Assembly (NCBI GenBank): GCA_036504675.1
Contig: DASXUT010000035.1
Span: 7,277-71,276, forward strand
Reading direction: 5' to 3'
Length of the DNA: 64,000 nucleotides
Origin: Bacillota bacterium
GTDB taxonomy: Bacteria; Bacillota; Sulfobacillia; JAJYWN01; JAJZPE01
How positions within the stretch are numbered: the first letter of the stretch is position 1; every line of letters starts with the position of its first letter. Made by a program: the position numbers and the translations under genes. Of this stretch, positions 3,808 through 48,527 are shown piece after piece. Under the pieces are notes generated by a model. It was not told the DNA's origin. It worked only from the letters and a program-made list of their open reading frames with translations, and searched no databases.

Positions 3808-3879
3808 AGCGGGAGACGGGATTCGAACCCGCGGCCTTCGGCTTGGGAAGCCAACGTTCTACCACTAAACTACTCCCGC
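3808..3879 (-). tRNA. tRNA-Gly (anticodon CCC)
   Basis: The reverse complement gives acceptor GCGGGAG/CTCCCGC, anticodon stem TTGGC/GCCGA with loop UUCCCAA (anticodon CCC), and T-arm GCGGG-TTCGAAT-CCCGT. CCA is not encoded. Confidence 0.8.
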
Positions 3880-37481: not shown

Positions 37482-38249
37482 TTGGAGGAGTCCTCCCTTC
37501 GGGAAATCCTCGAGCGTCTGCGGATCGGCTCCATCGGTGTGGATCAGGCGGTTGAGATCCTTCGGACCTTGCCGTACGAGGACCTCGAGTTCGCCAAGGT
37601 CGACCACCATAGACATCTTCGAACGGGATTCCCGGAGGTTGTCTTCTGTCAGGGAAAAACCATCCAGCAGGTTCTGGCCATCCTCGACCGGTTGGCTCGG
37701 GTCAACTCGCGGGTCATGGCCACCAGGGCCGGCCCGGAGCTCTATGAAGCGGCCAGGGCGCTTTGGCCGCATGCCGCTTATCGGGAGGCAGCCCGGGTTA
37801 TCGTCCTGGAGAAACCCGGTGTCAAGACACCGAAGCGGGTAGGGCGCGTCGTGGTGGCTTCGGGGGGCACGGCCGACATCCCGGTGGCCGAAGAGGCTGC
37901 GGTCACGGCTGAAGTCATGGGCGCAGAGGTGGAGCGGGTCTATGACGTCGGAGTAGCCGGTCTGCACCGGCTGCTGGACAAGCGGAAAGTGCTGACTGCT
38001 GGCCGCGTGATAGTCGCCGTCGCCGGGATGGAGGGGGCCCTGGCGAGCGTGGTGGCCGGGTTGGTGGACAAGCCGGTCATCGCCGTCCCCACCAGCGTCG
38101 GGTATGGCGCCAGCTTCGGTGGCTTGGCGGCCCTCCTGGCCATGCTCAACAGCTGCGCCGCCGGGGTCGGCGTGGTCAACATCGACAACGGCTTCGGTGC
38201 AGGCTACCTGGCCGCTCAGATCAACCGCCTGGGAGGAGAGGTCATTTGA
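37482..38249 (+). CDS. larB: nickel-pincer cofactor biosynthesis protein LarB (PurE-like carboxylase/hydrolase)
   Basis: 255 aa with the PurE-like fold motifs VVVASGGTADIPVAEEA...IVAVAGMEGALASVVAGL...VIAVPTSVGYG. Confidence 0.8.
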   Translation: MEESSLREILERLRIGSIGVDQAVEILRTLPYEDLEFAKVDHHRHLRTGFPEVVFCQGKTIQQVLAILDRLARVNSRVMATRAGPELYEAARALWPHAAYREAARVIVLEKPGVKTPKRVGRVVVASGGTADIPVAEEAAVTAEVMGAEVERVYDVGVAGLHRLLDKRKVLTAGRVIVAVAGMEGALASVVAGLVDKPVIAVPTSVGYGASFGGLAALLAMLNSCAAGVGVVNIDNGFGAGYLAAQINRLGGEVI

Positions 38250-39439
38250 GGGCGGCGTACTTCGATTGCTTTCATGGGGCCGCGGGAGACATGCTGGTCG
38301 GGGCCCTCTTGGATGCCGGCCTGTCGCTCTCGGACCTTCGGGATGGTTTGGCGACCCTCAATCTTGGTGGCTACACCATTCAAGCAGAGAAGGTCGATCG
38401 AGGGGGCCTCGTCGGCACGCACTTTCGGGTGGCCGTGGTCGACCCCGACCCGCCCCACCGGCACCTCTCGGACATCCTTGAACTGCTTCATGGGAGCCGC
38501 CTGCCCGCGCGGGTGCGGGCTCAGTCGGAGGGGGTCTTCTCTCGTCTGGCAAAGGCCGAGGCGGCCGTCCACGGCGTCTCGGTTGAAGCCGTCCATTTCC
38601 ATGAGGTCGGGGCGATCGACTCCATCATCGACGTAACCGGCGTGGTCCTCGGTCTTGAGCTCCTCGGGGTCGACCGGGTCTACGCCTCGGTGCTATCCGT
38701 GGGGCGAGGGACCGTGATGACTTCTCACGGGCTCCTGCCCGTTCCCGCCCCGGCCACGGCCAGGCTACTTGAGGGCTTTCCGATTCGCGAGGGACCTGGC
38801 GACGGCGAGCTCCTTACCCCTACCGCGGCGGCCTTGTTGACCCACCTCTCCATAGCCGTCGGGGCCTTGCCTGACCTGAGGGTCGAGGGCGTCGGGTACG
38901 GGGCGGGATCGCGCAACCCGGACACCCCGAACCTGGTTCGCGTAATGGTGGGACAGGTGGGTGAAGAGGGGAAAGACGTGGCAGGGCTGGAGCAGGACCG
39001 GGTGACCGTCCTCGAGGCGAACATCGATGATATGCCGGCCCTGGTGTTCAGCCACGTCTTTGAGCGCCTCTTCGAAGAGGGCGCCCTGGACGTCTACACC
39101 AGTCCCATCGGCATGAAGAAGTCCCGCCCTGGCGTCTTGCTAGGGGCCATTTGCCCCCCCGAGGTGGCCGGTCGGTTATCCCGCCTAATCCTGGTGGAGA
39201 CGACCACCCTCGGCGTGCGGGCCCATGACTGCCGGCGGATGGTCGCACCGCGCAGGATGATCTCAGTCGACACGCCCTACGGTCCGGTGCGGGTGAAGGT
39301 GGGACTTTCCGGGGAGCAACCTCAGGTGTCACCTGAGTATGAAGATTGCCGAGCCCTGGCCAGATTCGCTCGACAACCGTTGAAGACGATCTACGATGAA
39401 GCCCATCGCGCGGCCCTCTCAGTCTTGGGCTTGCGTTGA
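38246..39439 (+). CDS. larC: nickel insertion protein LarC (pyridinium-3,5-bisthiocarboxylate mononucleotide nickel chelatase)
   Basis: The N-terminus AAYFDCFHGAAGDMLVGALLDAGL and the motif HFHEVGAIDSIIDVTG are present. 397 aa. There is a 4-bp ATGA overlap with larB. Confidence 0.8.
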   Translation: MRAAYFDCFHGAAGDMLVGALLDAGLSLSDLRDGLATLNLGGYTIQAEKVDRGGLVGTHFRVAVVDPDPPHRHLSDILELLHGSRLPARVRAQSEGVFSRLAKAEAAVHGVSVEAVHFHEVGAIDSIIDVTGVVLGLELLGVDRVYASVLSVGRGTVMTSHGLLPVPAPATARLLEGFPIREGPGDGELLTPTAAALLTHLSIAVGALPDLRVEGVGYGAGSRNPDTPNLVRVMVGQVGEEGKDVAGLEQDRVTVLEANIDDMPALVFSHVFERLFEEGALDVYTSPIGMKKSRPGVLLGAICPPEVAGRLSRLILVETTTLGVRAHDCRRMVAPRRMISVDTPYGPVRVKVGLSGEQPQVSPEYEDCRALARFARQPLKTIYDEAHRAALSVLGLR

Positions 39440-40057
39440 CGCGACTCGCCCGGTGACGGCTTGGGGCCGGGGTCGAGGGGGGCAACAGCGGTTCGGCCTG
39501 TGGGTTTTCCGCCGGGGATCGCAGGCTGGGAATACTGCGGGCGCTCAGCCTCCAACTTCCCTTTGGCCGTGAAAGAAGAGGTTTCGCAAGTTGTGGCGGC
39601 GGGCAGGGAGCCCGCCGCCTCGCCGCTTCTGTCGCCCGGCGTCGAAATGGGTCTGCAGTCGCCGAGTCTCGTTGGCCAGTGGGCTCTGACTGGTCATCGG
39701 TGCGTGTTGCCTGGGAGTCGAGCCAGCGGGGCAAGGGGCCTGGGGGGACCCGTCGCCTGTCAGACTGGGTCGAACGGGCGAGAAAGGGTGTCTGGGTCGA
39801 GTCTCTTGGCACCCTCCCGGAGTGACTGTCGTGTCTCCTGGCTGCCCCGATACGGCTGGCACTGGCGAGTTTGGGTTCGCGGTCCCGCCAAGCGCCACAA
39901 GGCAGTGGCAGCTAGCGGCCAGGGGCAAGAGTAGCCGCCAGCGCGTACTGGCGGCTACGAGTCTCTGGGGCTTCCATCCGGCACGGGCGATTGGCGAGTG
40001 GCTCTTGCCCTCCCTGGGGCCTGGTCGGCCGCGCTTGGGCCCGCGCTTCTCCTCTCC

Positions 40058-40960
40058 CTACGTGGTAAGCACCCGAGAGCGCACCCCTGGGGTCGTGCCG
40101 GATGTGCCTCGAGTCAGGACCATGTCGAGGATCCTCTCGAGGTCCTCCCGGCTATAGTAGTCGATCTCGATTCTCCCCCGCGCCTTTCCTCTTAACTGCT
40201 TGACCCTAACCTGGGTCCCAAAGGCTCGTTGAAGGTTCTCCTCGACCTCGACCATCATCGGCTCACGATGGCGAGTGCTGGCCTTCGGTTTATTCTCCTT
40301 GTCGGCAGCCAGCTTCTTCGCCAGCTCCTCGGCTTGGCGGACCGATAGCTCCTTGGCCACAATCGCCTTCGCCAGGCGGAGGCGCAGATCATCCAGCTCA
40401 AGTGAGAGGATCGCCCGAGCATGTCCGGCGGAGAGTGTTCCACGTGAAACATCGTCCTTCAACTCCGCCGGAAGGCTCAGAAGCCGCAGTGAGTTGGCCA
40501 CCGCCGGCCGGCTCCGGCCTACCTTGTGGGCCACGTCCTCCTGAGTCAACGAGAACTCATCCATCAGTCGACGAAAAGCCTCCGCTTCTTCGAGCGGATT
40601 CAGGTCCTCGCGCTGCAGGTTCTCGACGAGGGCGATCTCCATGCTTTCCGCCTCGCCGAATTCGCTCACCACAACTGGAATCTCCCGCATCCCGGCCAGT
40701 TGCGCCGCCCGCCAACGCCGCTCCCCCGCCACCAGCTCGTACCCGTCGTTGACGGGCCTAACGAGAATCGGTTGCACGACACCGTGTTCCTTGATGGATT
40801 CCGAGAGCTCACGGAGCTTCTCTTGGTCCATCACCCGCCGCGGTTGGTATCGATTGGGCTTTATCCTGTCAATTTGAAGCCGAGACGCCTCCGAAGGGCC
40901 CTCGTCGCCCCCCGGCAACAGCGCCTCAAGCCCCCTGCCTAGCCCTCGTTGCTTGGGCAT
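40058..40960 (-). CDS. parB: chromosome partitioning protein ParB/Spo0J
   Basis: The ParB box GERRWRAAQLAG and the HTH are present. In track ORF 40058..41041 the first 27 aa are junk overlapping parA, so the start MPKQRGLGRGLEALL at about 40960 is preferred. Confidence 0.85.
   Translation of the reverse strand: MPKQRGLGRGLEALLPGGDEGPSEASRLQIDRIKPNRYQPRRVMDQEKLRELSESIKEHGVVQPILVRPVNDGYELVAGERRWRAAQLAGMREIPVVVSEFGEAESMEIALVENLQREDLNPLEEAEAFRRLMDEFSLTQEDVAHKVGRSRPAVANSLRLLSLPAELKDDVSRGTLSAGHARAILSLELDDLRLRLAKAIVAKELSVRQAEELAKKLAADKENKPKASTRHREPMMVEVEENLQRAFGTQVRVKQLRGKARGRIEIDYYSREDLERILDMVLTRGTSGTTPGVRSRVLTT
40436..40451 (+). other. parS centromere-like site inside the parB/spo0J coding region
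   Basis: Exact 16-bp palindrome TGTTCCACGTGAAACA, matching the Bacillus parS consensus tGTTNCACGTGAAACa. Confidence 0.6.
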
Positions 40961-41714
40961 GCATCGCAACCTCCTTGGCGAGCTCGGTGTAGACCTCTGC
41001 GCCCTTGGATTTGGGGTCGTAGGTGATGATCGGCTTCCCATACCCGGGAGCCTCGCTCAGTCGGATGTTCCGCGGGATGATTGTCTGATAGACTTTCTCC
41101 CGAAAGAATCGCTTGACTTCCTCCGCCACCTGGTTGGAGAGGTTCGTCCGCGCATCGTACATCGTCAGTACCACCCCTTCAAGCTGTAGCCCCGCGTTCA
41201 GCTGATTTTGGATGAGGTGGATCGTGTTCATCAACTGGGTCAGCCCCTCCAGCGCATAGTACTCACACTGGATGGGGACCAGTACCGAGTCAGCTGCGGT
41301 TAGTGCATTAACGGTCAGCAGTCCAAGGGAAGGCGGGCAGTCGATGAGGACGAACTCGTAGTCGTCGCGCACATCGGCCAGCGCCTTCTTCAGCTTGGTC
41401 TCCCGGGACAGGGCCGGCACCAGTTCGACCTCTGCACCCGCCAGGTCAATGGTCGACGGCACCAGGTCCAGCCCGCCCACCACGGTCTTCACGACGACCT
41501 CGCGCATCGGGACATCGTCAATCAGCACCTGGTAGATACATTGGGTAATCTTCTTCTTGTCGACTCCCAGACCGCTCGTGGTATTCCCCTGCGGATCGCT
41601 GTCGATGAGCAGCACCCGGTGACCCAGTGCTCCTAAGGCCGCCCCAAGATTGACCGCGGTCGTGGTCTTCCCCACTCCGCCTTTCTGGTTGGCGATGGCG
41701 ATAACTCTGCTCAT
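40926..41714 (-). CDS. parA: ParA/Soj chromosome partitioning ATPase
   Basis: Deviant Walker A IAIANQKGGVGKTTTAVNLGAAL. In track ORF 40926..42092 the first 126 aa are wrong-frame junk. ATG at 41714 (MSRVIAIANQKGG) has a GGGGTGA RBS. Confidence 0.9.
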   Translation of the reverse strand: MSRVIAIANQKGGVGKTTTAVNLGAALGALGHRVLLIDSDPQGNTTSGLGVDKKKITQCIYQVLIDDVPMREVVVKTVVGGLDLVPSTIDLAGAEVELVPALSRETKLKKALADVRDDYEFVLIDCPPSLGLLTVNALTAADSVLVPIQCEYYALEGLTQLMNTIHLIQNQLNAGLQLEGVVLTMYDARTNLSNQVAEEVKRFFREKVYQTIIPRNIRLSEAPGYGKPIITYDPKSKGAEVYTELAKEVAMHAQATRARQGA

Positions 41715-41937
41715 CCAATCACCCCATCCATTCCTTGAACCCCCGTCGACGACCCCTTGCTGTCTGTCCAGAACTTCGTCACTGAAAAACCCAGTTCCTT
41801 CTCTTCTTACCAGATATGCGCCCAACCGCTTCCCCCGCCCTTGACGCGGCCCGCCCATCCTACGGTCTCCCCCCGGGCCGCCAAAGACCAGCCGGCACTG
41901 GACTCGGTTCCGCCTTCCTCGAACCTGGCACATGCAG

Positions 41938-41969
41938 TCAAACAAAAAAGCGGTGCACGGCGCACCGCT
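41938..41969 (-). terminator. rho-independent terminator downstream of the ParM-like gene
   Basis: The minus strand reads AGCGGTGC-GCCGT-GCACCGCT followed by TTTTTTGTTT. The stem is 8 bp, perfect. Confidence 0.6.
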
Positions 41970-41997
41970 AGTTCGACCTTCGCACGGTAGGCGACCC

Positions 41998-43044
41998 TTA
42001 ATCCAGGAATCCGCCACCGTTCTCGCTCTTGAAGACCCGCCGGGCCAACTTGTGGAATCCTCTAGCGTTGGCCATTTGGGCGTTCTCGACAATCATCGCG
42101 TTGGGAAATTCTGTCATCAGATACTGCCCCAGAGGCTGCCCGCCCCCGCCGGTGATCAGAATCCGGTCGAGATCGCGATAGTCCCACAGGGAATCGACCA
42201 CCGTGATGAGCTTTGCAGCCACCCACTCGAGGGTTTCCTTCTTGAACTCGCTGAGGTCGTAACCCTTTCCGGCAATCCTGATCTCGCCCCGCTCGACGAT
42301 TTCGTCCATCTCCCAGTTCTCTTTGTCAATGGCGAAGATCTCCCGGAGCTTGCCGGCAATGATCCCATAGGCGCTGGCCAGGCCAGTGGTAGTCGACGTG
42401 CTCAGCCGGTCGATGAACTCCATCCCGTCGGCCACGGCGAAATCGGCTGTCTTGAACCCGATGTCGATGATCCCCACCTTGGCCCGGCTGAGGTCCTGGT
42501 CAACAACGCGCCCGGTGTCATCGAGGGTCTGATCGTACAACGTCCCAAACGGCTGCGGAACCACCTTGACCTTGTCCACGTCCAGGACCAGATCGCGATC
42601 GCCATTGCCCTCATGCACCGTCAGCTCGTGCGCCCCCCGCAGGGCCTCCGCCAGCCCGTCCCGGTAACTCGCGTAGTAGTTGGTCGGGAGGCCGGTGACG
42701 ACGTTGAACGATTGCTGCGGTTCCGAGGCGAAGACGCTCAACCCGGCAAGGAGCAACACCTTGACATTCTTGTCCTGAACGCGATTCGGATCCAGGGAGC
42801 GGGCGGCGATCTCACTCTGGCGAACGGCCAGCCTCCCCACGAAGTACCGTCGTCCACCAACGCTGACCATCAGGTTGTCCACCAATCGGCTTCGGTCGGT
42901 GAACTCAGACTGGTACGATAGCGGCTGGCCAAGCCCCACTACGCTTGGGAAGAGGCATTCCTTCTCCCCATCGGTGACCTTGACAAACCCGTACCCGAGG
43001 TCGATCCCGAGACCCTTCTTGCTCAAAGAACGCTCCACCTCCAT
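41998..43044 (-). CDS. ParM/StbA-family actin-like ATPase (stand-alone, chromosomal)
   Basis: Actin-fold motifs GIDLGYGFVKV (phosphate-1), RYFVGRLA, VGIIDIGFKTADFAV (phosphate-2), and ILITGGGG (adenosine) are present. 349 aa from ATG 43044 with a GGAAGGAA RBS. The track start at 43101 lies inside the upstream terminator U-tract and is rejected. Confidence 0.75.
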   Translation of the reverse strand: MEVERSLSKKGLGIDLGYGFVKVTDGEKECLFPSVVGLGQPLSYQSEFTDRSRLVDNLMVSVGGRRYFVGRLAVRQSEIAARSLDPNRVQDKNVKVLLLAGLSVFASEPQQSFNVVTGLPTNYYASYRDGLAEALRGAHELTVHEGNGDRDLVLDVDKVKVVPQPFGTLYDQTLDDTGRVVDQDLSRAKVGIIDIGFKTADFAVADGMEFIDRLSTSTTTGLASAYGIIAGKLREIFAIDKENWEMDEIVERGEIRIAGKGYDLSEFKKETLEWVAAKLITVVDSLWDYRDLDRILITGGGGQPLGQYLMTEFPNAMIVENAQMANARGFHKLARRVFKSENGGGFLD

Positions 43045-43097
43045 GTGGTTTCCATTCCTTCCCGATCCGTGGTCAGGAATCGGAGCCTGCTTCAAAG

Positions 43098-43268
43098 ACA
43101 TAAAAACCCGCCTTTCTGGATGCCGAAAAGGCGGGTCTACCCCAATACCAACCCTCCTTCGGTAGCCCGGCCGTCCTAGCTCTCGCCTTAGACCCGTGGC
43201 TTTGCGTCCCTGCCTTTCGACAGGTTTGCCTTTATCGGGACGGATCTATATCCTTTTGCTGTGCCCTT
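43098..43268 (-). promoter_or_regulatory. class-I c-di-GMP riboswitch (GEMM motif) with terminator/antiterminator expression platform
   Basis: The minus-strand RNA reads GGGCACAG...AGGCAAACCUGUCGAAAGGCAGGGACGCAAAGCCACGGGUCUAAGGC. This matches the Vc2-type consensus GGGCAAACCnnnnGAAAnnnnGGGACGCAAAGCCnCCGGnCUAA, with a compensatory P2 stem (CCUGUC/GGCAGG) around a GAAA tetraloop. Downstream, UAGACCCGCCUUU can pair either with the aptamer segment CGGGUCUA or in the terminator CCCGCCUUU-loop-AAAGGCGGG followed by UUUUUA (43100-43135). Confidence 0.7.
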
Positions 43269-43277
43269 CCTAATTCA

Positions 43278-43306
43278 CCATAATTCGCCAAACTCCTGCT
43301 TGTCAA
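43278..43306 (-). promoter_or_regulatory. sigma-A promoter driving the riboswitch leader (TTGACA-17-TTATGG)
   Basis: On the minus strand TTGACA (43301-43306) is followed by a 17-nt spacer and TTATGG (43278-43283). It sits immediately after the TAA stop of the noc-like gene. Confidence 0.45.
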
Positions 43307-43316
43307 GAAGAATTTT

Positions 43317-44180
43317 TTACTTCCGGAGCTTCCCCGACGCCGACCCGGCCTGCTCCCTCGGGATGCGCACGGTCACCTCGATGAACTCCCCCCGGTCGGC
43401 TTCGCTCATCTGCGCCCTGACCCCCGCATCACGCAGGGTCTTTACCGCCTGGCGGAAGGTGTTCAGGAAAATGCGGACATCCTTGAATACCCTCAGCACC
43501 CTTTGACCCTTCCCTCCCGCGGTCTCTATTTCGCGGGAAATTTGCTCGAGGGTCTCCGCCACCAACTCCTCCGTCCGCCGAACTGAGAGGCCCTCCTGGG
43601 CGATGCGCTGGGCTATCTTCCCGGCCAGTCTGCCATCTTCCAGGCGGAGCAGGGCCCGGGCGTGGGTCTCGCTTAGCCGGCCCCCCCGGACCATCTCCTG
43701 CACGGGCGGGTCGAGCTTCAACAGCCTTAGCTTGTTGGCAATGGCCGGTTGGCTGCGACCAAGCCGTTGGCCCAACTCCTCTTGGGTCAGCCCGTGTTCC
43801 TCGATGAGCCGCTTATACCCGACCGCCTCTTCCAGGCAGTTCAGGTCCTCGCGCTGAAGGTTCTCGACCAGACTCAGGATGGCCTGGTCGATCCCACCCA
43901 TACTACGAACGATGACCGGCACTCGCTCGAGTCCGGCCATCTTAGCTGCCCTAAGGCGCCTTTCCCCGGCGACGAGCTCGTAGCCTCCGTCAGACAACTG
44001 CCTGACCACCAGGGGCTGAAGGACGCCATGCTCTCGCAGGGAGGCCGACAGCTCAGACAGCTTCGCCGGGTCAAACTGCTTCCGCGGTTGGTACGGGTTT
44101 ATCTTGATTCGGTCCAAAGCAACGTCGATTACCACGGTGCCGCCTTCCGGCCTGGCTCTTGCGGCCTCGTCCCCTGGCAT
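43317..44180 (-). CDS. ParB-family protein in the Noc (nucleoid occlusion) position
   Basis: ParB box GERRLRAAKMAG, an HTH, and 287 aa. It sits directly after rsmG as noc does in Bacillus. ATG at 44180 with an AGGGAGGG RBS about 9 nt upstream is preferred over GTG at 44189. Confidence 0.8.
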   Translation of the reverse strand: MPGDEAARARPEGGTVVIDVALDRIKINPYQPRKQFDPAKLSELSASLREHGVLQPLVVRQLSDGGYELVAGERRLRAAKMAGLERVPVIVRSMGGIDQAILSLVENLQREDLNCLEEAVGYKRLIEEHGLTQEELGQRLGRSQPAIANKLRLLKLDPPVQEMVRGGRLSETHARALLRLEDGRLAGKIAQRIAQEGLSVRRTEELVAETLEQISREIETAGGKGQRVLRVFKDVRIFLNTFRQAVKTLRDAGVRAQMSEADRGEFIEVTVRIPREQAGSASGKLRK

Positions 44181-44263
44181 CCGGCCCACCCCTCCCTGGA
44201 GGTTGGCGTGACCCTCGCCGCCCCTCTCTTGTCTAATAAGCCATTTCGCCGCTCTCAGCGGGA

Positions 44264-45031
44264 TTACCTCCCCGCGGTCTCCGACTCTCCCGTCCTTCCG
44301 GGTCCGGGCCTTCCGAGCGGCCGTTTCTGCGGAATCCCCGCCTTCCTGGGGTACTTCTCAGGCGTTCCTGCCTCCTTGGCCACGACCACCAGGGTCCGCG
44401 CCCCTCCGCCCCCTGGCAGAGACACCTTGACGGCTTTGGCCATCCGTCCCCCCACCGCCGTCAAAGCCAACGCGGCCTCGTCGGCCTCGGTCTCCCCCTC
44501 CGGGCCCTTCATTGCGACGAACCATCCGCCCACCCTGACCAAGGGCAGGCAAACCTCGGCCAGGGTGGCTAGGTGCCCGACGGCGCGGGCCACGGCCACA
44601 TCAAAGGCTTCCCGATAGCGGGCCTGGCGGGCCACATCCTCTGCCCTGGCGCCGACGACCTCGACCCCATCCAGGCCGAGCCGGCGGGTCGTCGCCTCGA
44701 GGAAGACGGCTTTCTTCTGACTGGCTTCTATCAGCGTCATCCTCAGGTCGGCACGGCTGATGGTCAGGGGAATCCCGGGAAATCCGCCGCCGCTGCCGAC
44801 GTCAACCACCCGAGCCCCGACCGGGAAGTCCAGGGCCAAAAGACAGGTGAGCGAATCGAGGAAATGTTTCACCAGCACCTCCTGATGCTCGGTGATCCGG
44901 GTCAGGTTGAATTCCTGGTTCGCCCCAAGGAGCAACCGCTCGAACCGCCCGAACTGCCTCTCCTGCTCCGGCGTCAAGGCGATCCCCAGGGCAGAGGCGA
45001 TGGCCGCGAGTTGGTCATCGGTCTGAAGCAT
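44264..45031 (-). CDS. rsmG: 16S rRNA (guanine527-N7)-methyltransferase RsmG (GidB)
   Basis: SAM motif [15 protein letters not shown]. In track ORF 44264..45226 the first 65 aa are junk overlapping mnmG. ATG at 45031 ([16 protein letters not shown]) is preferred. There is a basic Pro/Arg C-terminal tail. Confidence 0.85.
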
Positions 45032-46931
45032 CGGGCGGACCTCCCTTGCGCCGTTCGGCTTCCAAATGGACCAGGAGCAGCGAGACATCGGCCGGTGAGA
45101 CTCCGGAGATCCTCCCCGCCTGACCGACCGACTCCGGCCTGATTTGGCCCAGCTTCTGTCTGGCTTCGTTGGACAACCCATACACCCGCTCATACTCAAG
45201 GTACCGCGGAATGGTCCTGGCCTCAAGGTGCTTCATCCGCTCGACGTGGGCTTGTTGCTTAGCGATGTACCCCGCGTATTTGACCTGTACTTCGACCTCA
45301 TCCCCGACCTCCCCCGGAAGATCCGGTCGGCCTCGATCAATCTCCTTCAAGGCCGGATAGTCCAGTTCGGGGCGGCGCAACAGGTCGGCCAGAGAAGTCG
45401 CCGCCCGAAGCTCGGCGCTCCCGTGCTTCCGAAGGAAGCCTTGGGTGGCCTGGTCGAGACGGACCCGTGTCGCCTCGAGCCGCTCAATCTCCTTCTCCGT
45501 GGCTTCCCTATTGGCCTCAAAGGCCGCGTACTGACGGTCGGAGACCAATCCCACCGCCCGGCCGATGGGGGTCAGACGAAGATCGGCGTTGTCATGGCGG
45601 AGCAGAAGGCGGTGTTCCGACCTGGCTGTGAGCATCCGATATGGCTCATCGGTCCCTTTTGTCACCAGATCGTCGATAAGCACGCCGATGTAGGCCTCAG
45701 ACCGTTCCAGGACCAGCGGCGGCCGGCCCTGTAAGGTCAGGGCGGCGTTGATCCCGGCCATCAGTCCTTGGGCGGCCGCCTCTTCGTACCCCGAGGTACC
45801 ATTGATCTGCCCAGCCGCGAACAGGCCCGGCACCGCCTTGACCTCCAGGCTCTTACGGAGCTGTGTCGGGACGAGATAGTCGTACTCGATGGCGTAGCCA
45901 GGCCGGATCATCTCGGCGTGTTCAAGCCCGCGGACCGTTCGCAGGGCCCGCAGTTGGACGTCTTCGGGAAGCGAGGTTGAGAACCCGAGGACGTACATCT
46001 CCCTCGTGTCCCGGCCCTCCGGTTCGATAAAGATTTGGTGCCGTGTCTTCTCGGCGAAACGGACCACTTTGTCCTCGATGGACGGGCAATAGCGTGGGCC
46101 GACGCCCTTAATCGCGCCGCTGTATAAGGGCGCGCGGTGGAGGTTGGCCCGAATGATGGCGTGGGTCTCCTCGTTGCTGTATGTCAGCCAACAGGGCAGC
46201 TGCGCCCGCTCCTCAGCGAGGCACCCGGTCATGGCGGAGAAACAATACGACCGCGAGGCACCCGGCTGCTCCTGCATGGCCCCGAAATCGATGGAATCGC
46301 GGTCGATTCGCGGCGGGGTACCGGTCTTGAACCGCCCCAGCCTCAGTCCCAGCCCTTCCAGGCTGGCGGTCAGTCCGCGCGACGAGAGCTGCCCGCCAGG
46401 TCCGGACTCATAGGACAGGTCGCCGATGATCACCCGGCTGTTGAGGTAGACCCCGGTCGTCAGGATGCAGGCTCTAGCCCCGTAGACCATGCCCGCGGTG
46501 GTCCTGACCCCGCTCCCCCGCCCGTCCTCGAGCACGACTTCTTCGACCATGGCCTGCTTGATCCGGAGGCCCGGCGTCCGCTCAAGCGTTTGCCGCATCT
46601 CGGCCTGATACGCCCGCTTGTCCGATTGGACCCGAAGGGCTTGCACGGCCGGCCCTTTCCCCGTGTTGAGCAGCCTGACCTGCAGCCTCGTCAGGTCCGC
46701 CGTCCGGCCCATCTCGCCACCGAGGGCATCGATCTCCCTCACGAGGTGCCCCTTGGCCGGCCCCCCGATGGCCGGGTTGCAGGGCATCAAGGCAATGTTC
46801 TCGAGGTTGATGGTCAGGATCAGGGTCTCCTGCCCGAGCCGGGCCGCAGCCAAAGCCGCCTCGCAGCCGGCGTGTCCGGCACCGACGACGATGACGTCAT
46901 AATCGGCGACGCGGTACCCCAAACCGTTCAC
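45015..46931 (-). CDS. mnmG: tRNA uridine-5-carboxymethylaminomethyl synthesis enzyme MnmG (GidA)
   Basis: FAD motif [23 protein letters not shown]. 638 aa, full length. Confidence 0.95.
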
Positions 46932-48406
46932 TTCCCCACGCAGAATTCCGCGAAGAGACGGTCGAGGATGCCTTCATCGACGGTCTCCCCGGTGATCTCG
47001 CCCAAGGCCGACCAGGCCTCGCGAAGGTCGACCACGGCCAGGTCCTCGGCCAGACCACGTGCCAGAGTGGTCACCGCCTCGCCGACCGCCGACCGTGCCC
47101 GGCGAAGGGATTCCTCGTTTCGGACGCTCCCCACCAGGGCCTCCTCTGGCGCCTCGGCCGAACCGGCGTAGACGAACGCGATCAGGGCCTGCTCCAGGCG
47201 ATCCAGCCCGGCGCCGGTGGCGGCCGACACGAGGACCCTCTCCCGCCCAAGAGCCAGGCCTGCGACCTCCCGCTCAAGTTCAGGGGAGAGGCCCCCATCC
47301 ACCGAGAGAAGGTCCGACTTATTCAGGACGACAATCGCCGGGACCGCCCCGAGGCTCTCCAAGAGCCGGCGGTCCTCGTCGCGGAGGGGCTCGCTGACGT
47401 CAACAACGGCCAGGATCACGTCGGCCGCCGTCAGCCACTGTCTTGTCCGCTCGACCCCCAGGCTCTCCACGGGGTCCGTCGTCGCCCGCAGGCCGGCGGT
47501 GTCGACCAGGCGCACCGGCACGCCGCTGAGATCCAGGGGCTCCTCGATGGCGTCCCTGGTCGTCCCGGGCACCGCAGTGACGATCGCCCGGTCCTCCCTG
47601 AGCAACGCGTTGAGTAGCGAAGACTTCCCGACGTTGGGTCGGCCCGCGATGACCACTTTGAGCCCCTGTCTCAAAATCTTCCCCGCGTGGGCCGACCCGA
47701 CCAGCCTGGCCAGGTCTTCGTCGATGGCCTGGCACTCACCGCGGAGTGACCCGTACGGGCTCGCATCGATCTCCTCGTCCGGAAAGTCGACCCCCGCCTC
47801 CACTTGGGCGATGGCTCGAGTCAGGCGCTCCTGCAACCGCCTGACTTGCCCCGACAGCCGACCGCCCAACGCCTCCACGGCCGCCCGGCGGCTGGCCTCC
47901 GTCCTCGAACGGACGAGGGCCATCACCGCCTCGGCCTCGGCCAGATCCAGCCGGCCGTTCAGGAAGGCCCGCTTGGTGAACTCCCCCGGCTCGGCCAAAC
48001 GCGCCCCCGCCCTCAGTACGGCCTGGAGGACCGCCCGGGTGACCACCGGGCCCCCGTGGCACTGGAACTCGATCACGTCTTCCCGGGTGTAGCTGTGCGG
48101 TTGGCCCATCACGGCTAGGAGGACCTCGTCGAGAAGGCGCCCGTCCGGCGTCCAAGCGTGGCCGTACAGAAGCCGGGGAGATCCCTCCCCCGCCGCCGGC
48201 CTAACGCCCTCGGTGGCCGCCCTTCCGCGGGCTGGAGGTTCCCTGCGCGGACCCCGAGTGAACAGCCGCCCGGCGATGGCCCGGGCCTTCGGCCCGCTGA
48301 CTCGAACGATGCCGATCCCGCCCTCCCCCAGAGGAGTCGAGATGGCCGCGATCGTATCACCCTCCGCCGGCTTTTGACTCGGCCCCCCTTCACCCACACC
48401 AGGCAT
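46928..48406 (-). CDS. mnmE: tRNA modification GTPase MnmE (TrmE)
   Basis: The N-terminus [23 protein letters not shown]-domain [14 protein letters not shown]...DTAGLR...NKSD, and C-terminal CVGK are present. An about 35-aa low-complexity insertion lies near the N-terminus. Confidence 0.9.
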
Positions 48407-48527
48407 GACCGGCCTCCCTCCCCTAAGACGCTCGAACCTTTCAGCGCGGGCCCAGCAGAACCGCCGGGCACTTCCCGGCCGGCCGCTTCGATGGCCAGTT
48501 GCCCCGGGTCAGCCCTGGCAGGACCCT

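What the first reader, a model, noticed from the sequence alone, without database searches (positions are those of the whole stretch)
43098..43200. Mutually exclusive antiterminator/terminator pairing in the riboswitch expression platform
UAGACCCGCCUUU in the expression platform can pair in two ways. It can form the terminator stem CCCGCCUUU-loop-AAAGGCGGG followed by UUUUU. Or it can pair with the perfectly complementary 8-mer CGGGUCUA that lies inside the aptamer (the CUAA region of P3). Ligand-stabilised aptamer folding would sequester CGGGUCUA and free the terminator. That predicts a transcriptional OFF switch, so high c-di-GMP would silence the ParM-like gene.
Basis: inference. Interest (0 to 1): 0.6.

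Follow-up and report, generated by a model that had tools for sequence, protein, structure and literature searches.

The report
c-di-GMP riboswitch with terminator OFF switch

Summary
The aptamer 8-mer CGGGUCUA is at 43196-43189. Its perfect complement UAGACCCG is at 43139-43132. The terminator runs 43137-43106 and is followed by a U-tract.

The terminator is real and is kept in all five related loci. The 8-mer pairing is not supported:
- It is close to chance level (P 0.02-0.09).
- It is perfect only in this window; the relatives keep 4-7 of 8 pairs.
- Its fifth base co-varies with its P3 partner (U-A to C-G), not with the platform.
- Forming it means opening a -16 kcal/mol P3 hairpin. It costs 5-11 kcal/mol in every relative and never appears in predicted folds.

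A better antiterminator exists. The P1 3' strand plus an invariant GGAGGG linker (43162-43150) pairs with the terminator's 5' arm (43137-43123). That same strand also pairs with an extended P1 5' strand (43253-43236). Stabilities rise in the order P1 < antiterminator < terminator in all five sequences. This is the design of the characterised Cd1 OFF switch.

So the OFF logic holds, with a different antiterminator. The ligand-contact bases are the canonical G/A/C, although Rfam's GGC variant model scores best. The regulated gene is a chromosome-encoded ParM with no ParR, transcribed on its own, beside noc-soj-spo0J.

The parts
43277..43306 (-). Promoter-like site TTGACA-18 nt-TATGGT. The implied transcription start is near 43270.
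   Evidence: 10 of 12 consensus matches. The -10 region GAATTATGG is conserved in the orthologs; the -35 hexamer is not.
43236..43253 (-). P strand: leader plus P1 5' strand, GGAUAUAGAUCCGUCCCG. It pairs with the A strand to give an extended P1.
   Evidence: MFE of the 155-nt transcript. RNAduplex [PA] is -11.9 kcal/mol here. The orthologs use UUUCUU+CCCG, at -7.6 to -9.5 kcal/mol. Coordinates.
43157..43239 (-). c-di-GMP-I aptamer. The ligand-contact equivalents are G43230 (Vc2 G20), A43203 (A47) and C43162 (C92).
   Evidence: RF03167, 78.2 bits against a gathering score of 59, E = 7e-17. A second family of the same clan also passed its threshold. The G-to-A spacing of 27 nt matches Vc2, Vc1 and Bc1 (PMC4744006, PMC11218506).
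43204..43229 (-). P2 hairpin with a GAAA tetraloop (43218-43215).
   Evidence: helices 1-2 are 93-100% paired across 5 sequences.
43164..43201 (-). P3 hairpin, including the receptor-like UCUAAG (43192-43187) and CUAGGA (43179-43174).
   Evidence: 100% of cells paired, and 2 pairs changed on both sides.: -15.9 kcal/mol as an isolated hairpin.
43189..43196 (-).
   Evidence: Alignment column 56 (U43192) co-varies with P3 column 76 (UA in 3, CG in 2).
43150..43162 (-). A strand: P1 3' strand plus linker, CCGAAGGAGGGUU. It is the shared switching partner, pairing with P in the aptamer or with T in the antiterminator.
   Evidence: CCGAAGGAGGG is invariant in 6 of 6 sequences, while the next ~16 nt vary. 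The A:T helix is 98% paired. [AT] is -12.5 to -15.8 kcal/mol.
43140..43149 (-). Variable linker ending in a conserved GGG(G). It forms the loop of the antiterminator hairpin. It can also pair with UCCCGAUA (43240-43233) or with the first CCC of the T strand.
   Evidence: the 'a:e' structure scores -35.9 kcal/mol.
43132..43139 (-). UAGA is a variable spacer and CCCG is the start of the terminator 5' arm.
   Evidence: The orthologs carry ACGUCCCG, ACAUCCCG or UGGUCCCG at this position.
43123..43137 (-). T strand: terminator 5' arm, GACCCGCCUUUUCGG.
43106..43119 (-). H strand: terminator 3' arm, CCAGAAAGGCGGGU. The loop CAU lies at 43122-43120.
   Evidence: [TH] is -21.0 kcal/mol.
43094..43106 (-). 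U-rich tract UUUUUAUGUCUUU after the terminator stem.
   Evidence: U-tracts are conserved in the orthologs.
43034..43079 (-). Nearly invariant 5'-UTR block between the terminator and the start codon (UUCCUGACCACGGA..GGGAAGGA..AAACCACA.GGAGGUGGA). It includes the Shine-Dalgarno sequence GGAGG.
   Evidence: Predicted hairpins UCCU..CC/GG..AGGA and CCAC/GUGG show no covariation because the block hardly varies.
41998..43044 (-). Regulated gene: an actin-like ParM/StbA-family protein. The start is uncertain: AUG 43044, GUG 43038 or UUG 43026.
   Evidence: ALP_N 2.8e-36 and MreB-like_C 8e-13; pCBH ParM 1.5e-29 and Dh-cParM1 2.6e-23. AUG 43044 reads AGG in four of the five orthologous loci (L001, L002, L083, L084) and is kept in L003.
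41944..41968 (-). Intrinsic terminator directly after the ParM-like gene (GCGGUGC-GCCGU-GCACCGC followed by UUUUUU). It makes the riboswitch-plus-gene unit monocistronic.
   Evidence: -12.6 kcal/mol. A hairpin with a T-run sits at the same position in the orthologs.

Best explanation
This is a canonical type-I c-di-GMP-I riboswitch with a GAAA tetraloop. Its ligand-contact bases are G43230, A43203 and C43162. It most likely works as a transcriptional OFF switch of the same design as Clostridioides difficile Cd1.

Four strands matter:
- P: leader plus P1 5' strand, 43253-43236.
- A: P1 3' strand plus the invariant GGAGGG linker, 43162-43150.
- T: terminator 5' arm, 43137-43123.
- H: terminator 3' arm, 43119-43106.

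The purine-rich A strand can pair with P, which closes the aptamer. It can also pair with the pyrimidine-rich T strand. That gives a local antiterminator hairpin, CCGAA:UUCGG + GG:CC + GGGUU:GACCC, with a 12-nt loop.

Without c-di-GMP, A:T is stronger than P:A and forms as soon as T is made. H then finds no partner and RNA polymerase reads into the ParM-like gene. With c-di-GMP bound, C43162 pairs with the ligand and P1 is locked. A is unavailable, T pairs with H, and transcription stops at the U-tract (43106-43094).

Shown here: the aptamer, the terminator, their conservation, the complementarity and the energy ordering. Inferred: ligand binding, the kinetic competition and the OFF outcome.
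For: Aptamer:
- Rfam hit of 78.2 bits with the full model matched. The same hit is present in L001, L002 and L003.
- P2 and P3 are 97.8% paired, with two compensatory pairs.
- The contact nucleotides G/A/C sit at Vc2 spacing (PMC4744006; PMC11218506).

Terminator:
- Hairpins of -18 to -20.5 kcal/mol followed by a U-tract in all orthologs, with variable loops.
- Aptamer and terminator coexist in the full-length MFE and in a holo-mimic constrained fold.

A strand:
- CCGAAGGAGGG is invariant in 6 of 6 sequences, although GGAGGG lies outside the aptamer model and the following ~16 nt vary freely.
- The A:T helix is 98% paired; the single failure is an alignment artefact in L003.
- A C-to-U change in T keeps a G.U pair in both A:T and T:H.

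Energetics:
- The explicit A:T + P2 + P3 structure scores -43.4 kcal/mol against -28.9 for P2 + P3 alone, with a barrier of 4.3 kcal/mol.
- RNAduplex energies rise in the same order in all five orthologs: [PA] -7.6 to -11.9, then [AT] -12.5 to -15.8, then [TH] -15.5 to -21.0.

Precedent: Cd1 has the same architecture. Its aptamer and terminator can coexist, and its antiterminator pairs T with the A strand, including the ligand-pairing C87/G86 (PMC9262584).
Against: - There is no covariation in the A:T helix. All ten pairs are invariant or change on one side only, so conservation could reflect the P:A or T:H constraints alone.
- MFE predictions for pre-terminator transcripts are unstable. They choose the aptamer 5' strand (window, L083), the P2 loop (L001, L003) or A:T (L002) as T's partner. 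With the leader included, they choose the extreme 5' end.
- An alternative helix, UCCCGAUA:UAUUGGGG (43240-43233 with 43147-43140), competes with P1 and would block A:T topologically.
- Only 5 distinct sequences were available.
- Some predicted c-di-GMP-I riboswitches, such as Bc1, do not respond to ligand in transcription assays (PMC11218506).
Confidence: 0.6

Rival explanations
1. Antiterminator built from the aptamer's 5' strand. CCGA-U-AAAGGC (43238-43228: P1 5' strand plus the J1/2 bases, including the G20 equivalent) pairs with GCCUUU-UCGG of the T strand. It encloses P2 and P3 in a multiloop. Ligand binding would hold these bases in P1 and the binding pocket and so free T. The outcome is still an OFF switch.
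For: - It is the MFE of the pre-terminator transcript in the window and in L083 (-47.6 and -45.5 kcal/mol). It lies within 0.6 kcal/mol of the MFE in L002 and L003.
- Duplex energy is -9.6 to -13.7 kcal/mol in all orthologs.
- The refolding barrier is low, 3.6 kcal/mol.
- The complementarity is conserved. An extra U in L003 turns the bulge into a U.U mismatch.
Against: - It is a long-range helix closing about 100 nt, so it is kinetically disfavoured against the local A:T hairpin.
- As an explicit structure it is weaker than A:T (-38.1 against -43.4 kcal/mol).
- It gives no role to the invariant GGAGGG linker.
- Its bases are fixed by the aptamer anyway, so their conservation carries no information.
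- The characterised Cd1 switch uses the A strand (PMC9262584).
Confidence: 0.12
2. The P3 5' strand plus receptor, CGGGUCUA (43196-43189), pairs with UAGACCCG (43139-43132) as the antiterminator. Ligand-stabilised aptamer folding would sequester the 8-mer.
For: - The complement is a perfect 8-mer, with a duplex energy of -14.3 kcal/mol.
- It occurs in only 2% of randomised spacers.
- It can stack on the aptamer-5'-strand helix, so the whole of UAGACCCGCCUUUUCGG would be paired.
- L003 keeps 7 of 8 pairs.
Against: - L001 keeps 5 of 8 pairs; L002, L083 and L084 keep 4 of 8.
- Base 5 of the 8-mer co-varies with P3, not with the platform.
- The pairing requires opening P3 (-15.9 kcal/mol). P3 forms without ligand about 50 nt before the platform is transcribed.
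- The explicit structure scores -22.2 kcal/mol against -28.9 for doing nothing, with a 16.7 kcal/mol barrier.
- It is the worst of four candidates in all 5 orthologs, by 5-11 kcal/mol.
- Its base-pair probability is about zero.
- It is absent from the MFE at every transcript length.
Confidence: 0.06
3. Antiterminator built from the P2 loop and 3' strand. CGAAAGGC-A-GGG (43219-43208) pairs with CCC-GCCUUU-U-CG of the T strand and unfolds P2.
For: - It has the strongest duplex energy with T in every ortholog, -15.0 to -18.5 kcal/mol.
- It is the MFE in L001 and L003. In both, P2 carries a mismatch and the spacer has gained complementarity to GGGAC(G).
Against: - It needs P2 to open. In the window the barrier is 13.8 kcal/mol. 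The explicit energy of -27.2 is worse than P2 + P3 alone at -28.9.
- It is 4-8 kcal/mol above the MFE in the window, L002 and L083.
- The resemblance largely follows from both the P2 loop region and the H strand containing GAAAGGC.
Confidence: 0.05
4. The element is not a working OFF switch. It could be a constitutive attenuator. It could be an ON switch in which the UCCCGAUA:UAUUGGGG helix sequesters the linker in the apo state. Or the aptamer could respond to another ligand.
For: - The full-length MFE contains the terminator even without ligand, at -61.2 kcal/mol against -53 to -56.5 for the antiterminated folds.
- The alternative helix is in the MFE.
- Bc1 shows that a predicted c-di-GMP-I switch can fail to respond (PMC11218506).
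- Rfam's best-scoring model is the GGC variant.
Against: - The terminator shares no nucleotides with the aptamer, which argues against ON logic.
- When P1 is locked, only GGGUU:GACCC (3 bp in the orthologs) is left to oppose a 13-bp terminator.
- The energy ladder fits an OFF switch in all orthologs.
- The contact nucleotides are the canonical G/A/C in all six sequences.
Confidence: 0.12

Closest known systems
Cd1 c-di-GMP-I riboswitch of Clostridioides difficile, a transcriptional OFF switch described with the P/A/T/H strand scheme (PMC9262584)
   Same: - Same aptamer class.
- Aptamer and terminator are separate and can coexist.
- The antiterminator pairs the aptamer-closing 3' strand, including the C that base-pairs with the ligand, with the terminator's 5' arm.
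- Control is kinetic, because the terminator is the most stable fold.
   Different: - The expression-platform sequences are unrelated.
- The platform here is much shorter, about 50 nt from the aptamer to the U-tract; in Cd1 antiterminator folding starts about 47 nt after the aptamer is complete.
- P1 here is extended into the leader.
- The regulated gene is a ParM-like actin rather than a flagellar operon.
- Nothing here has been tested experimentally.
Vc2 and Vc1 (Vibrio cholerae) and Bc1 (Bacillus thuringiensis) c-di-GMP-I aptamers
   Same: - Ligand contacts equivalent to G20, A47 and C92, with the same 27-nt G-to-A spacing (PMC4744006, PMC11218506).
- A GAAA tetraloop with a receptor-like P3 (type I).
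   Different: - Different expression platforms.
- Bc1 has a dual terminator and did not respond to c-di-GMP in vitro. This is a caution for any prediction made from sequence alone.
Rfam RF03167, the c-di-GMP-I-GGC variant
   Same: It is the best-scoring covariance model for this aptamer and its orthologs, at 75-79 bits.
   Different: The model consensus has G at model position 37, the A47 equivalent. All six sequences here have A. By its binding-site bases this RNA is a canonical c-di-GMP-I, not the variant.
Chromosome-encoded ParMs (cParMs: Dh-cParM1, Nt-cParM-2; PMC12270681)
   Same: - The regulated protein matches Dh-cParM1 (E = 2.6e-23).
- It is 47% identical to the ParM/StbA-family protein of Natranaerobius thermophilus (P0094). 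That is the species in which PMC12270681 describes the ParR-less Nt-cParM-2 cassette. I did not check whether P0094 is that gene.
- It is chromosomal and has no ParR gene beside it.
   Different: - That paper reports no riboswitch and no c-di-GMP link.
- Here the gene sits between a noc-like parB and soj-spo0J, next to mnmE-mnmG-rsmG.
- Here it has its own promoter, riboswitch and terminator.

Membership tests
c-di-GMP-I riboswitch (GEMM-I, Rfam clan CL00126) | Covariance-model match above the curated gathering score over the full model | tested here: met
   78.2 bits against 59, model positions 1-80 of 80. A second family of the same clan also passed its threshold. Orthologs score 75.2-78.6 bits.
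c-di-GMP-I riboswitch (GEMM-I, Rfam clan CL00126) | P2 and P3 helices maintained by compensatory change | tested here: met
   97.8% of cells paired, against 22-43% when the partner columns are slid. P3 is 100% paired, with two pairs changed on both sides (CG/UA and UA/CG). Only 5 sequences were available.
c-di-GMP-I riboswitch (GEMM-I, Rfam clan CL00126) | Ligand-contact nucleotides equivalent to Vc2 G20, A47 and C92 | tested here: met
   G43230, A43203 and C43162, from the alignment (model positions 10, 37, 75). The 27-nt G-to-A spacing matches Vc2, Vc1 and Bc1 (PMC4744006, PMC11218506). Invariant in all six sequences.
c-di-GMP-I riboswitch (GEMM-I, Rfam clan CL00126) | Type-I tertiary contact: a GNRA tetraloop on P2 and a receptor in P3 | tested here: met
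   GAAA lies at 43218-43215. UCUAAG...CUAGGA (43192-43187 and 43179-43174) resembles the CCUAAG...UAUGG receptor. That resemblance is judged by inspection and from my own knowledge. L002 has CCUAAA...GAUGG.
c-di-GMP-I riboswitch (GEMM-I, Rfam clan CL00126) | Binds c-di-GMP | not testable with these tools
   Needs in-line probing, ITC or equilibrium dialysis.
c-di-GMP-I-GGC variant (RF03167) | G in place of A at the A47-equivalent position | tested here: not met
   The model consensus shows G at position 37. The window and all orthologs have A (GACGCAAAGCC). My reading of the family name as positions 20/47/92 comes from my own knowledge. The defining paper (PMC5358364) is not held.
Rho-independent (intrinsic) terminator | GC-rich hairpin directly followed by a U-tract, conserved in position | tested here: met
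   -19.2 kcal/mol, then UUUUUAUGUCUUU. Orthologs give -18.2 to -20.5 kcal/mol with different loops and inner stems. The simple scan missed it because its loop rule allows only 3-8 nt without mismatches.
Rho-independent (intrinsic) terminator | Terminates transcription | not testable with these tools
   Needs a single-round in vitro transcription assay.
Cd1-type transcriptional OFF switch ([PA][TH] versus P[AT]H) | Aptamer and terminator share no nucleotides and can coexist | tested here: met
   Full-length MFE and holo-mimic constrained fold.
Cd1-type transcriptional OFF switch ([PA][TH] versus P[AT]H) | The aptamer-closing A strand, including the ligand-pairing C, is complementary to the terminator 5' arm | tested here: met
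   CCGAAGGAGGGUU pairs with GACCCGCCUUUUCGG over 12 bp. The helix is 98% paired across orthologs. There is no covariation, because the helix hardly varies.
Cd1-type transcriptional OFF switch ([PA][TH] versus P[AT]H) | Stability order P:A < A:T < T:H | tested here: met
   the order holds in all five orthologs.
Cd1-type transcriptional OFF switch ([PA][TH] versus P[AT]H) | c-di-GMP increases termination | not testable with these tools
   Needs transcription assays with and without ligand.
   8/8, 7/8, 5/8, 4/8 and 4/8 pairs, with none changed on both sides. Alignment column 56 co-varies with P3 instead.
   -22.2 against -28.9 kcal/mol, with a 16.7 kcal/mol barrier; 5-11 kcal/mol above the MFE in all orthologs; never populated.

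The most novel reading that the evidence does not exclude
The riboswitch may place a chromosome-encoded, ParR-less ParM filament protein under direct c-di-GMP control. The gene is inserted between the noc-like parB and soj-spo0J in the mnmE-mnmG-rsmG-soj-spo0J cluster. That position would link the motile/sessile second messenger to chromosome or nucleoid handling in an uncultivated Bacillota lineage. It would also give the first regulatory clue to what chromosomal ParMs do.

A smaller novel reading also remains open. The variable spacer before the terminator arm may evolve lineage-specific complementarity to different G-rich aptamer segments. It matches the P3 5' strand here and GGGACG of P2 in L001 and L003. 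That would give an auxiliary, branched antiterminator.
Probability: 0.12. Interest if true: 0.65.

Novelty: new member of a known kind. Interest (0 to 1): 0.28.

Why it matters
As a mechanism this is a textbook terminator/antiterminator riboswitch. The main result is a correction: the eye-catching perfect 8-mer is not the switch, and the conserved P1-3'-strand/GGAGGG segment is. It shows how one perfect complement in a purine-rich aptamer can mislead. Here at least six AAGG-type segments can pair with the pyrimidine-rich terminator arm.

The biological context is mildly new. I found no report of a c-di-GMP riboswitch upstream of a ParM/actin-like gene. The function of chromosome-encoded ParMs is an open question (PMC12270681). 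An OFF switch predicts that this filament protein is made only when c-di-GMP is low, and that prediction can be tested.

Tried and rejected
**Searches for more orthologs**
- The genome scan with the ParM-like protein found 2 loci.
- The metagenome scan with a 20-sequence alignment returned 80 loci.
- A look-up of P0002 gave 2 more loci.
- Only L001, L002, L003, L083 and L084 carry the riboswitch and platform.
- The metagenome loci (L003-L082; ParM homologs of 58% identity and below, apart from L003) were checked with a motif regex; 20 of them were also scanned with Rfam. Neither check found the riboswitch or its platform directly upstream of the ParM gene in any locus except L003.
- That left too few sequences for real covariation statistics on the platform.

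**L050**
- Its GEMM-I aptamer lies 1.5 kb upstream of a ParM homolog, but it directly precedes a type IV pilin gene.
- It was rejected as evidence for a recurrent riboswitch-ParM link.

**MFE folding as an arbiter between antiterminators**
- The predicted partner of the terminator arm changes with the ortholog and with how much 5' leader is included.
For everything else I used explicit-structure energies.

**ON-switch reading through the UCCCGAUA:UAUUGGGG helix**
- With P1 locked, only 3-5 bp remain to oppose a 13-bp terminator.
- Rejected as unlikely.

**Rfam label 'GGC variant'**
- Rejected, because the defining position is A in all six sequences.
- The defining paper (Weinberg 2017, PMC5358364) could not be read.

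**Other points**
- The ORF start at ATG 43101 listed was rejected. It lies in the terminator's U-tract.
- The 388-aa ParA ORF is an over-extension. The real start is about 41714.
- Two script crashes came from my own indexing errors. They were fixed.
Full report
**1. What is at the coordinates**

The feature is on the minus strand. Rfam finds one riboswitch aptamer at 43239-43157 (RF03167, 78.2 bits against a gathering score of 59, E = 7e-17, full model). A second family of the same clan also passed its threshold.

Reading the minus strand:
- A sigma-70-like promoter lies at 43306-43277.
- The aptamer follows.
- A 17-nt linker follows the aptamer.
- The terminator hairpin ACCCGCCUUUU-C-GG / CAU / CC-A-GAAAGGCGGGU lies at 43136-43106, followed by UUUUUAUGUCUUU.
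- A 46-nt conserved UTR block (43079-43034) follows.
- The gene encodes an actin-like ParM/StbA protein (ALP_N 2.8e-36, MreB-like_C 8e-13; pCBH ParM 1.5e-29 and Dh-cParM1 2.6e-23).

CGGGUCUA is at 43196-43189 and UAGACCCG is at 43139-43132.

**2. The aptamer is a canonical c-di-GMP-I**

The GGC variant model scores best. Its consensus carries G at model position 37, where this RNA and all five relatives carry A. The three ligand contacts known from Vc2 are G20, A47 and C92. The G-to-A spacing of 27 nt is also seen in Vc1 and Bc1 (PMC4744006, PMC11218506). Here the contacts correspond to G43230, A43203 and C43162.

P2 carries a GAAA tetraloop. P3 carries a receptor-like UCUAAG...CUAGGA. Across five distinct sequences P2 and P3 are 97.8% paired. 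P3 is 100% paired, with two pairs changed on both sides. c-di-GMP is therefore the expected ligand. I cannot test binding.

**3. Related sequences**

The ParM-like protein retrieved two Bacillota MAG loci (L001, L002), one metagenome locus (L003) and two NCBI MAG loci (L083, L084). All five have the same aptamer, platform and gene order. In the other metagenome loci (L004-L082), whose ParM homologs are at most 58% identical, neither a motif regex on all of them nor an Rfam scan of 19 of them found the riboswitch or its platform directly upstream of the gene. That leaves five distinct sequences. They are enough to test conservation but too few for strong covariation statistics.

**4.

- Chance. 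A perfect complement of 8 or more bases overlapping the terminator arm arises in 8.8% of dinucleotide shuffles of the aptamer. It arises in 2% of randomised spacers.
- Conservation. The platform octamer is ACGUCCCG in L001, ACAUCCCG in L002, L083 and L084, and UGGUCCCG in L003. These give 5, 4 and 7 of 8 pairs. Only the CGGG:CCCG core is constant.
- Covariation. U43192, the fifth base of the 8-mer, pairs with A in P3. In L002 and L083 both sides have changed to C-G, which preserves P3. The proposed platform partner does not follow: UA in 1 sequence and unpaired in 4.
- Energetics.
  - P3 alone is worth -13 to -21 kcal/mol. It is complete about 50 nt before the platform is transcribed.
  - The 8-mer helix crosses the lower stem of P3 as well, so the whole hairpin must open.
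  - The explicit structure '8-mer + P2' scores -22.2 kcal/mol against -28.9 for P2 + P3 with the platform unpaired, with a 16.7 kcal/mol refolding barrier.
  - Forcing only its CGGG:CCCG core costs 5.3-11.0 kcal/mol relative to the free MFE in all five orthologs. That is the worst of four candidates each time.
  - Its summed pair probability is 0.0-0.7.
  - It never appears in the MFE at any transcript length.
- Logic. P3 does not depend on ligand, so the 8-mer is sequestered in both states.

**5. What the switch more likely is**

Including the 5' leader changes the picture. P1 is not the 3-bp helix of the Rfam model. It is extended: GGAUAUAGAUCCGUCCCG (43253-43236) pairs with CGAAGGAGGGUUGGUAUU (43161-43144). 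The orthologs use UUUCUU+CCCG against CG-AA-GGAGGG.

The purine-rich segment CCGAAGGAGGG (43162-43152) is invariant in all six sequences, while the next ~16 nt vary freely. This is notable because GGAGGG lies outside the aptamer model.

The same segment is complementary to the terminator's 5' arm. The pairs are CCGAA:UUCGG, GG:CC and GGGUU:GACCC, 12 bp in a local hairpin with a 12-nt loop. That structure scores -43.4 kcal/mol with a 4.3 kcal/mol barrier. The helix is 98% paired across orthologs.

RNAduplex energies rise in the same order in all five orthologs:

| Pairing | Energy (kcal/mol) |
|---|---|
| P:A (extended P1) | -7.6 to -11.9 |
| A:T (antiterminator) | -12.5 to -15.8 |
| T:H (terminator) | -15.5 to -21.0 |

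This is the architecture worked out experimentally for the Cd1 c-di-GMP-I OFF switch. There the aptamer and terminator coexist. The antiterminator pairs the T strand with the A strand, including the C that base-pairs with the ligand (PMC9262584). Here that C is C43162, the first base of the A:T helix.

A holo-mimic fold (aptamer pairs enforced, remaining aptamer bases forbidden from pairing elsewhere) leaves the terminator intact.

**6. Remaining uncertainty**

The T strand (CCCGCCUUUUCGG) is pyrimidine-rich. The transcript contains at least six AAGG-type purine segments that can pair with it: the leader, J1/2, the P2 loop, the P3 loop, the A strand and the H strand.

- The aptamer 5' strand CCGA-U-AAAGGC (43238-43228) is the MFE partner in the window and in L083.
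- The P2 loop is the MFE partner in L001 and L003.
- The A strand is the MFE partner in L002.

These rivals also imply OFF logic. I prefer A:T for three reasons: it is local, it explains the invariant linker, and it matches Cd1. The A:T helix shows no covariation, so this preference rests on inference.

A further alternative helix is UCCCGAUA:UAUUGGGG (43240-43233 with 43147-43140). It appears in the full-length MFE and is partly conserved, at 5-6 bp. Its role is unexplained.

**7. Context**

The unit is monocistronic. A second intrinsic terminator (41968-41944) follows the stop codon, in the orthologs as well. There is no ParR-like ORF. A conserved non-coding block of about 200 nt precedes soj/parA, whose real start is about 41714.

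The neighbourhood is mnmE-mnmG-rsmG, a noc-like parB, the riboswitch-ParM unit, then soj-spo0J. This is the gene order known from Firmicutes around noc-soj-spo0J (my own knowledge), in an uncultivated Bacillota.

Chromosome-encoded ParMs were described recently, including examples without ParR. Their function is unknown and no riboswitch link was reported (PMC12270681). A literature search found no c-di-GMP riboswitch-ParM report.

**8. Verdict**

- Observation: partly confirmed. The sequences are real and the terminator is robust, but the 8-mer is near chance level and specific to this window.
- Interpretation: partly supported. The OFF logic holds; the proposed antiterminator does not.
- Novelty: a new member of a known kind.
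- Interest: low to moderate, and mostly because of the regulated gene.

Noticed in passing
43157-43239 (-); L001 1895-1977; L002 2799-2883; L003 2295-2379: Rfam assigns these aptamers to the c-di-GMP-I-GGC variant model. All of them have A, not G, at the A47-equivalent position (model position 37) and A at position 74. By binding-site bases they are canonical c-di-GMP-I, so the family label is misleading here.
   Followed up: partly
43034-43079 (-): A nearly invariant 46-nt block lies between the riboswitch terminator and the start codon: UUCCUGACCACGGA..GGGAAGGA..AAACCACA.GGAGGUGGA. It could form the hairpins UCCU..CC/GG..AGGA and CCAC/GUGG, the latter around the Shine-Dalgarno sequence. It is too conserved to show covariation. 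It may be a protein-binding site or a second, translational control layer.
   Followed up: partly
43024-43044 (-): The start codon of the ParM-like gene is ambiguous. AUG 43044 is present only in the window and L003, and reads AGG in the other orthologs. GUG 43038 and UUG 43026 are conserved in frame. The ATG at 43101 reported by the ORF list lies in the terminator's U-tract and is not credible.
   Followed up: partly
41944-41968 (-): A second intrinsic terminator (GCGGUGC-GCCGU-GCACCGC followed by UUUUUU, -12.6 kcal/mol) lies about 30 nt after the ParM-like stop codon. Orthologs have a hairpin with a T-run at the same place. The riboswitch therefore controls only this one gene, not soj-spo0J.
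   Followed up: partly
41715-41943 (-): About 230 nt of non-coding sequence lie between the ParM terminator and soj/parA. The last ~100 nt are conserved (AGAAGGAAGUGGGUUUCCCGGCGACGAAUU...GGGGUGAU). There is no ParR-like ORF. This stretch could hold the soj promoter/leader or a centromere-like site.
   Followed up: no
40926-42092 (-): The 388-aa ParA ORF is an over-extension. The Walker-type domain starts at residue 129. Orthologs are called at 261 aa, and the likely start is ATG 41714 (MSRVIAIANQKGG).
   Followed up: partly
38000-48500 (-): The gene order is mnmE, mnmG, rsmG, a noc-like ParB (43317-44189), the riboswitch-ParM unit, soj/ParA and spo0J/ParB. A ParM gene has been inserted into the mnmE-mnmG-rsmG-soj-spo0J cluster of an uncultivated Bacillota. 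L083 and L084 show the same gene order.
   Followed up: partly
43140-43147 with 43233-43240 (-): An alternative helix, UCCCGAUA:UAUUGGGG, competes with P1 for the CCCG strand. It appears in the full-length MFE, and 5-6 bp of it are kept in the orthologs through one-sided changes (U.G/U-A, G.U/G-C). Its function is unexplained.
   Followed up: partly
L001 ~1995-2010; L003 ~2395-2410: In L001 and L003, P2 has an internal mismatch (GGCAGG has become GACAGG). At the same time the spacer before the terminator arm has gained complementarity to the aptamer's GGGAC(G) (CGUCCC and GUCCC). This could be compensation that favours a P2-based antiterminator in that lineage, or it could be chance.
   Followed up: partly
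L050 990-1740: Another c-di-GMP-I-like aptamer (found by regex only) sits directly upstream of a type IV pilin gene (MSRKKEQGFTLIELL...). That gene lies about 700 nt upstream of a distant ParM homolog (33% identity).
   Followed up: partly
2923-2994 and 3808-3879 (-): Two tRNA genes, at 65 and 73 bits. They are not related to the finding.
   Followed up: no
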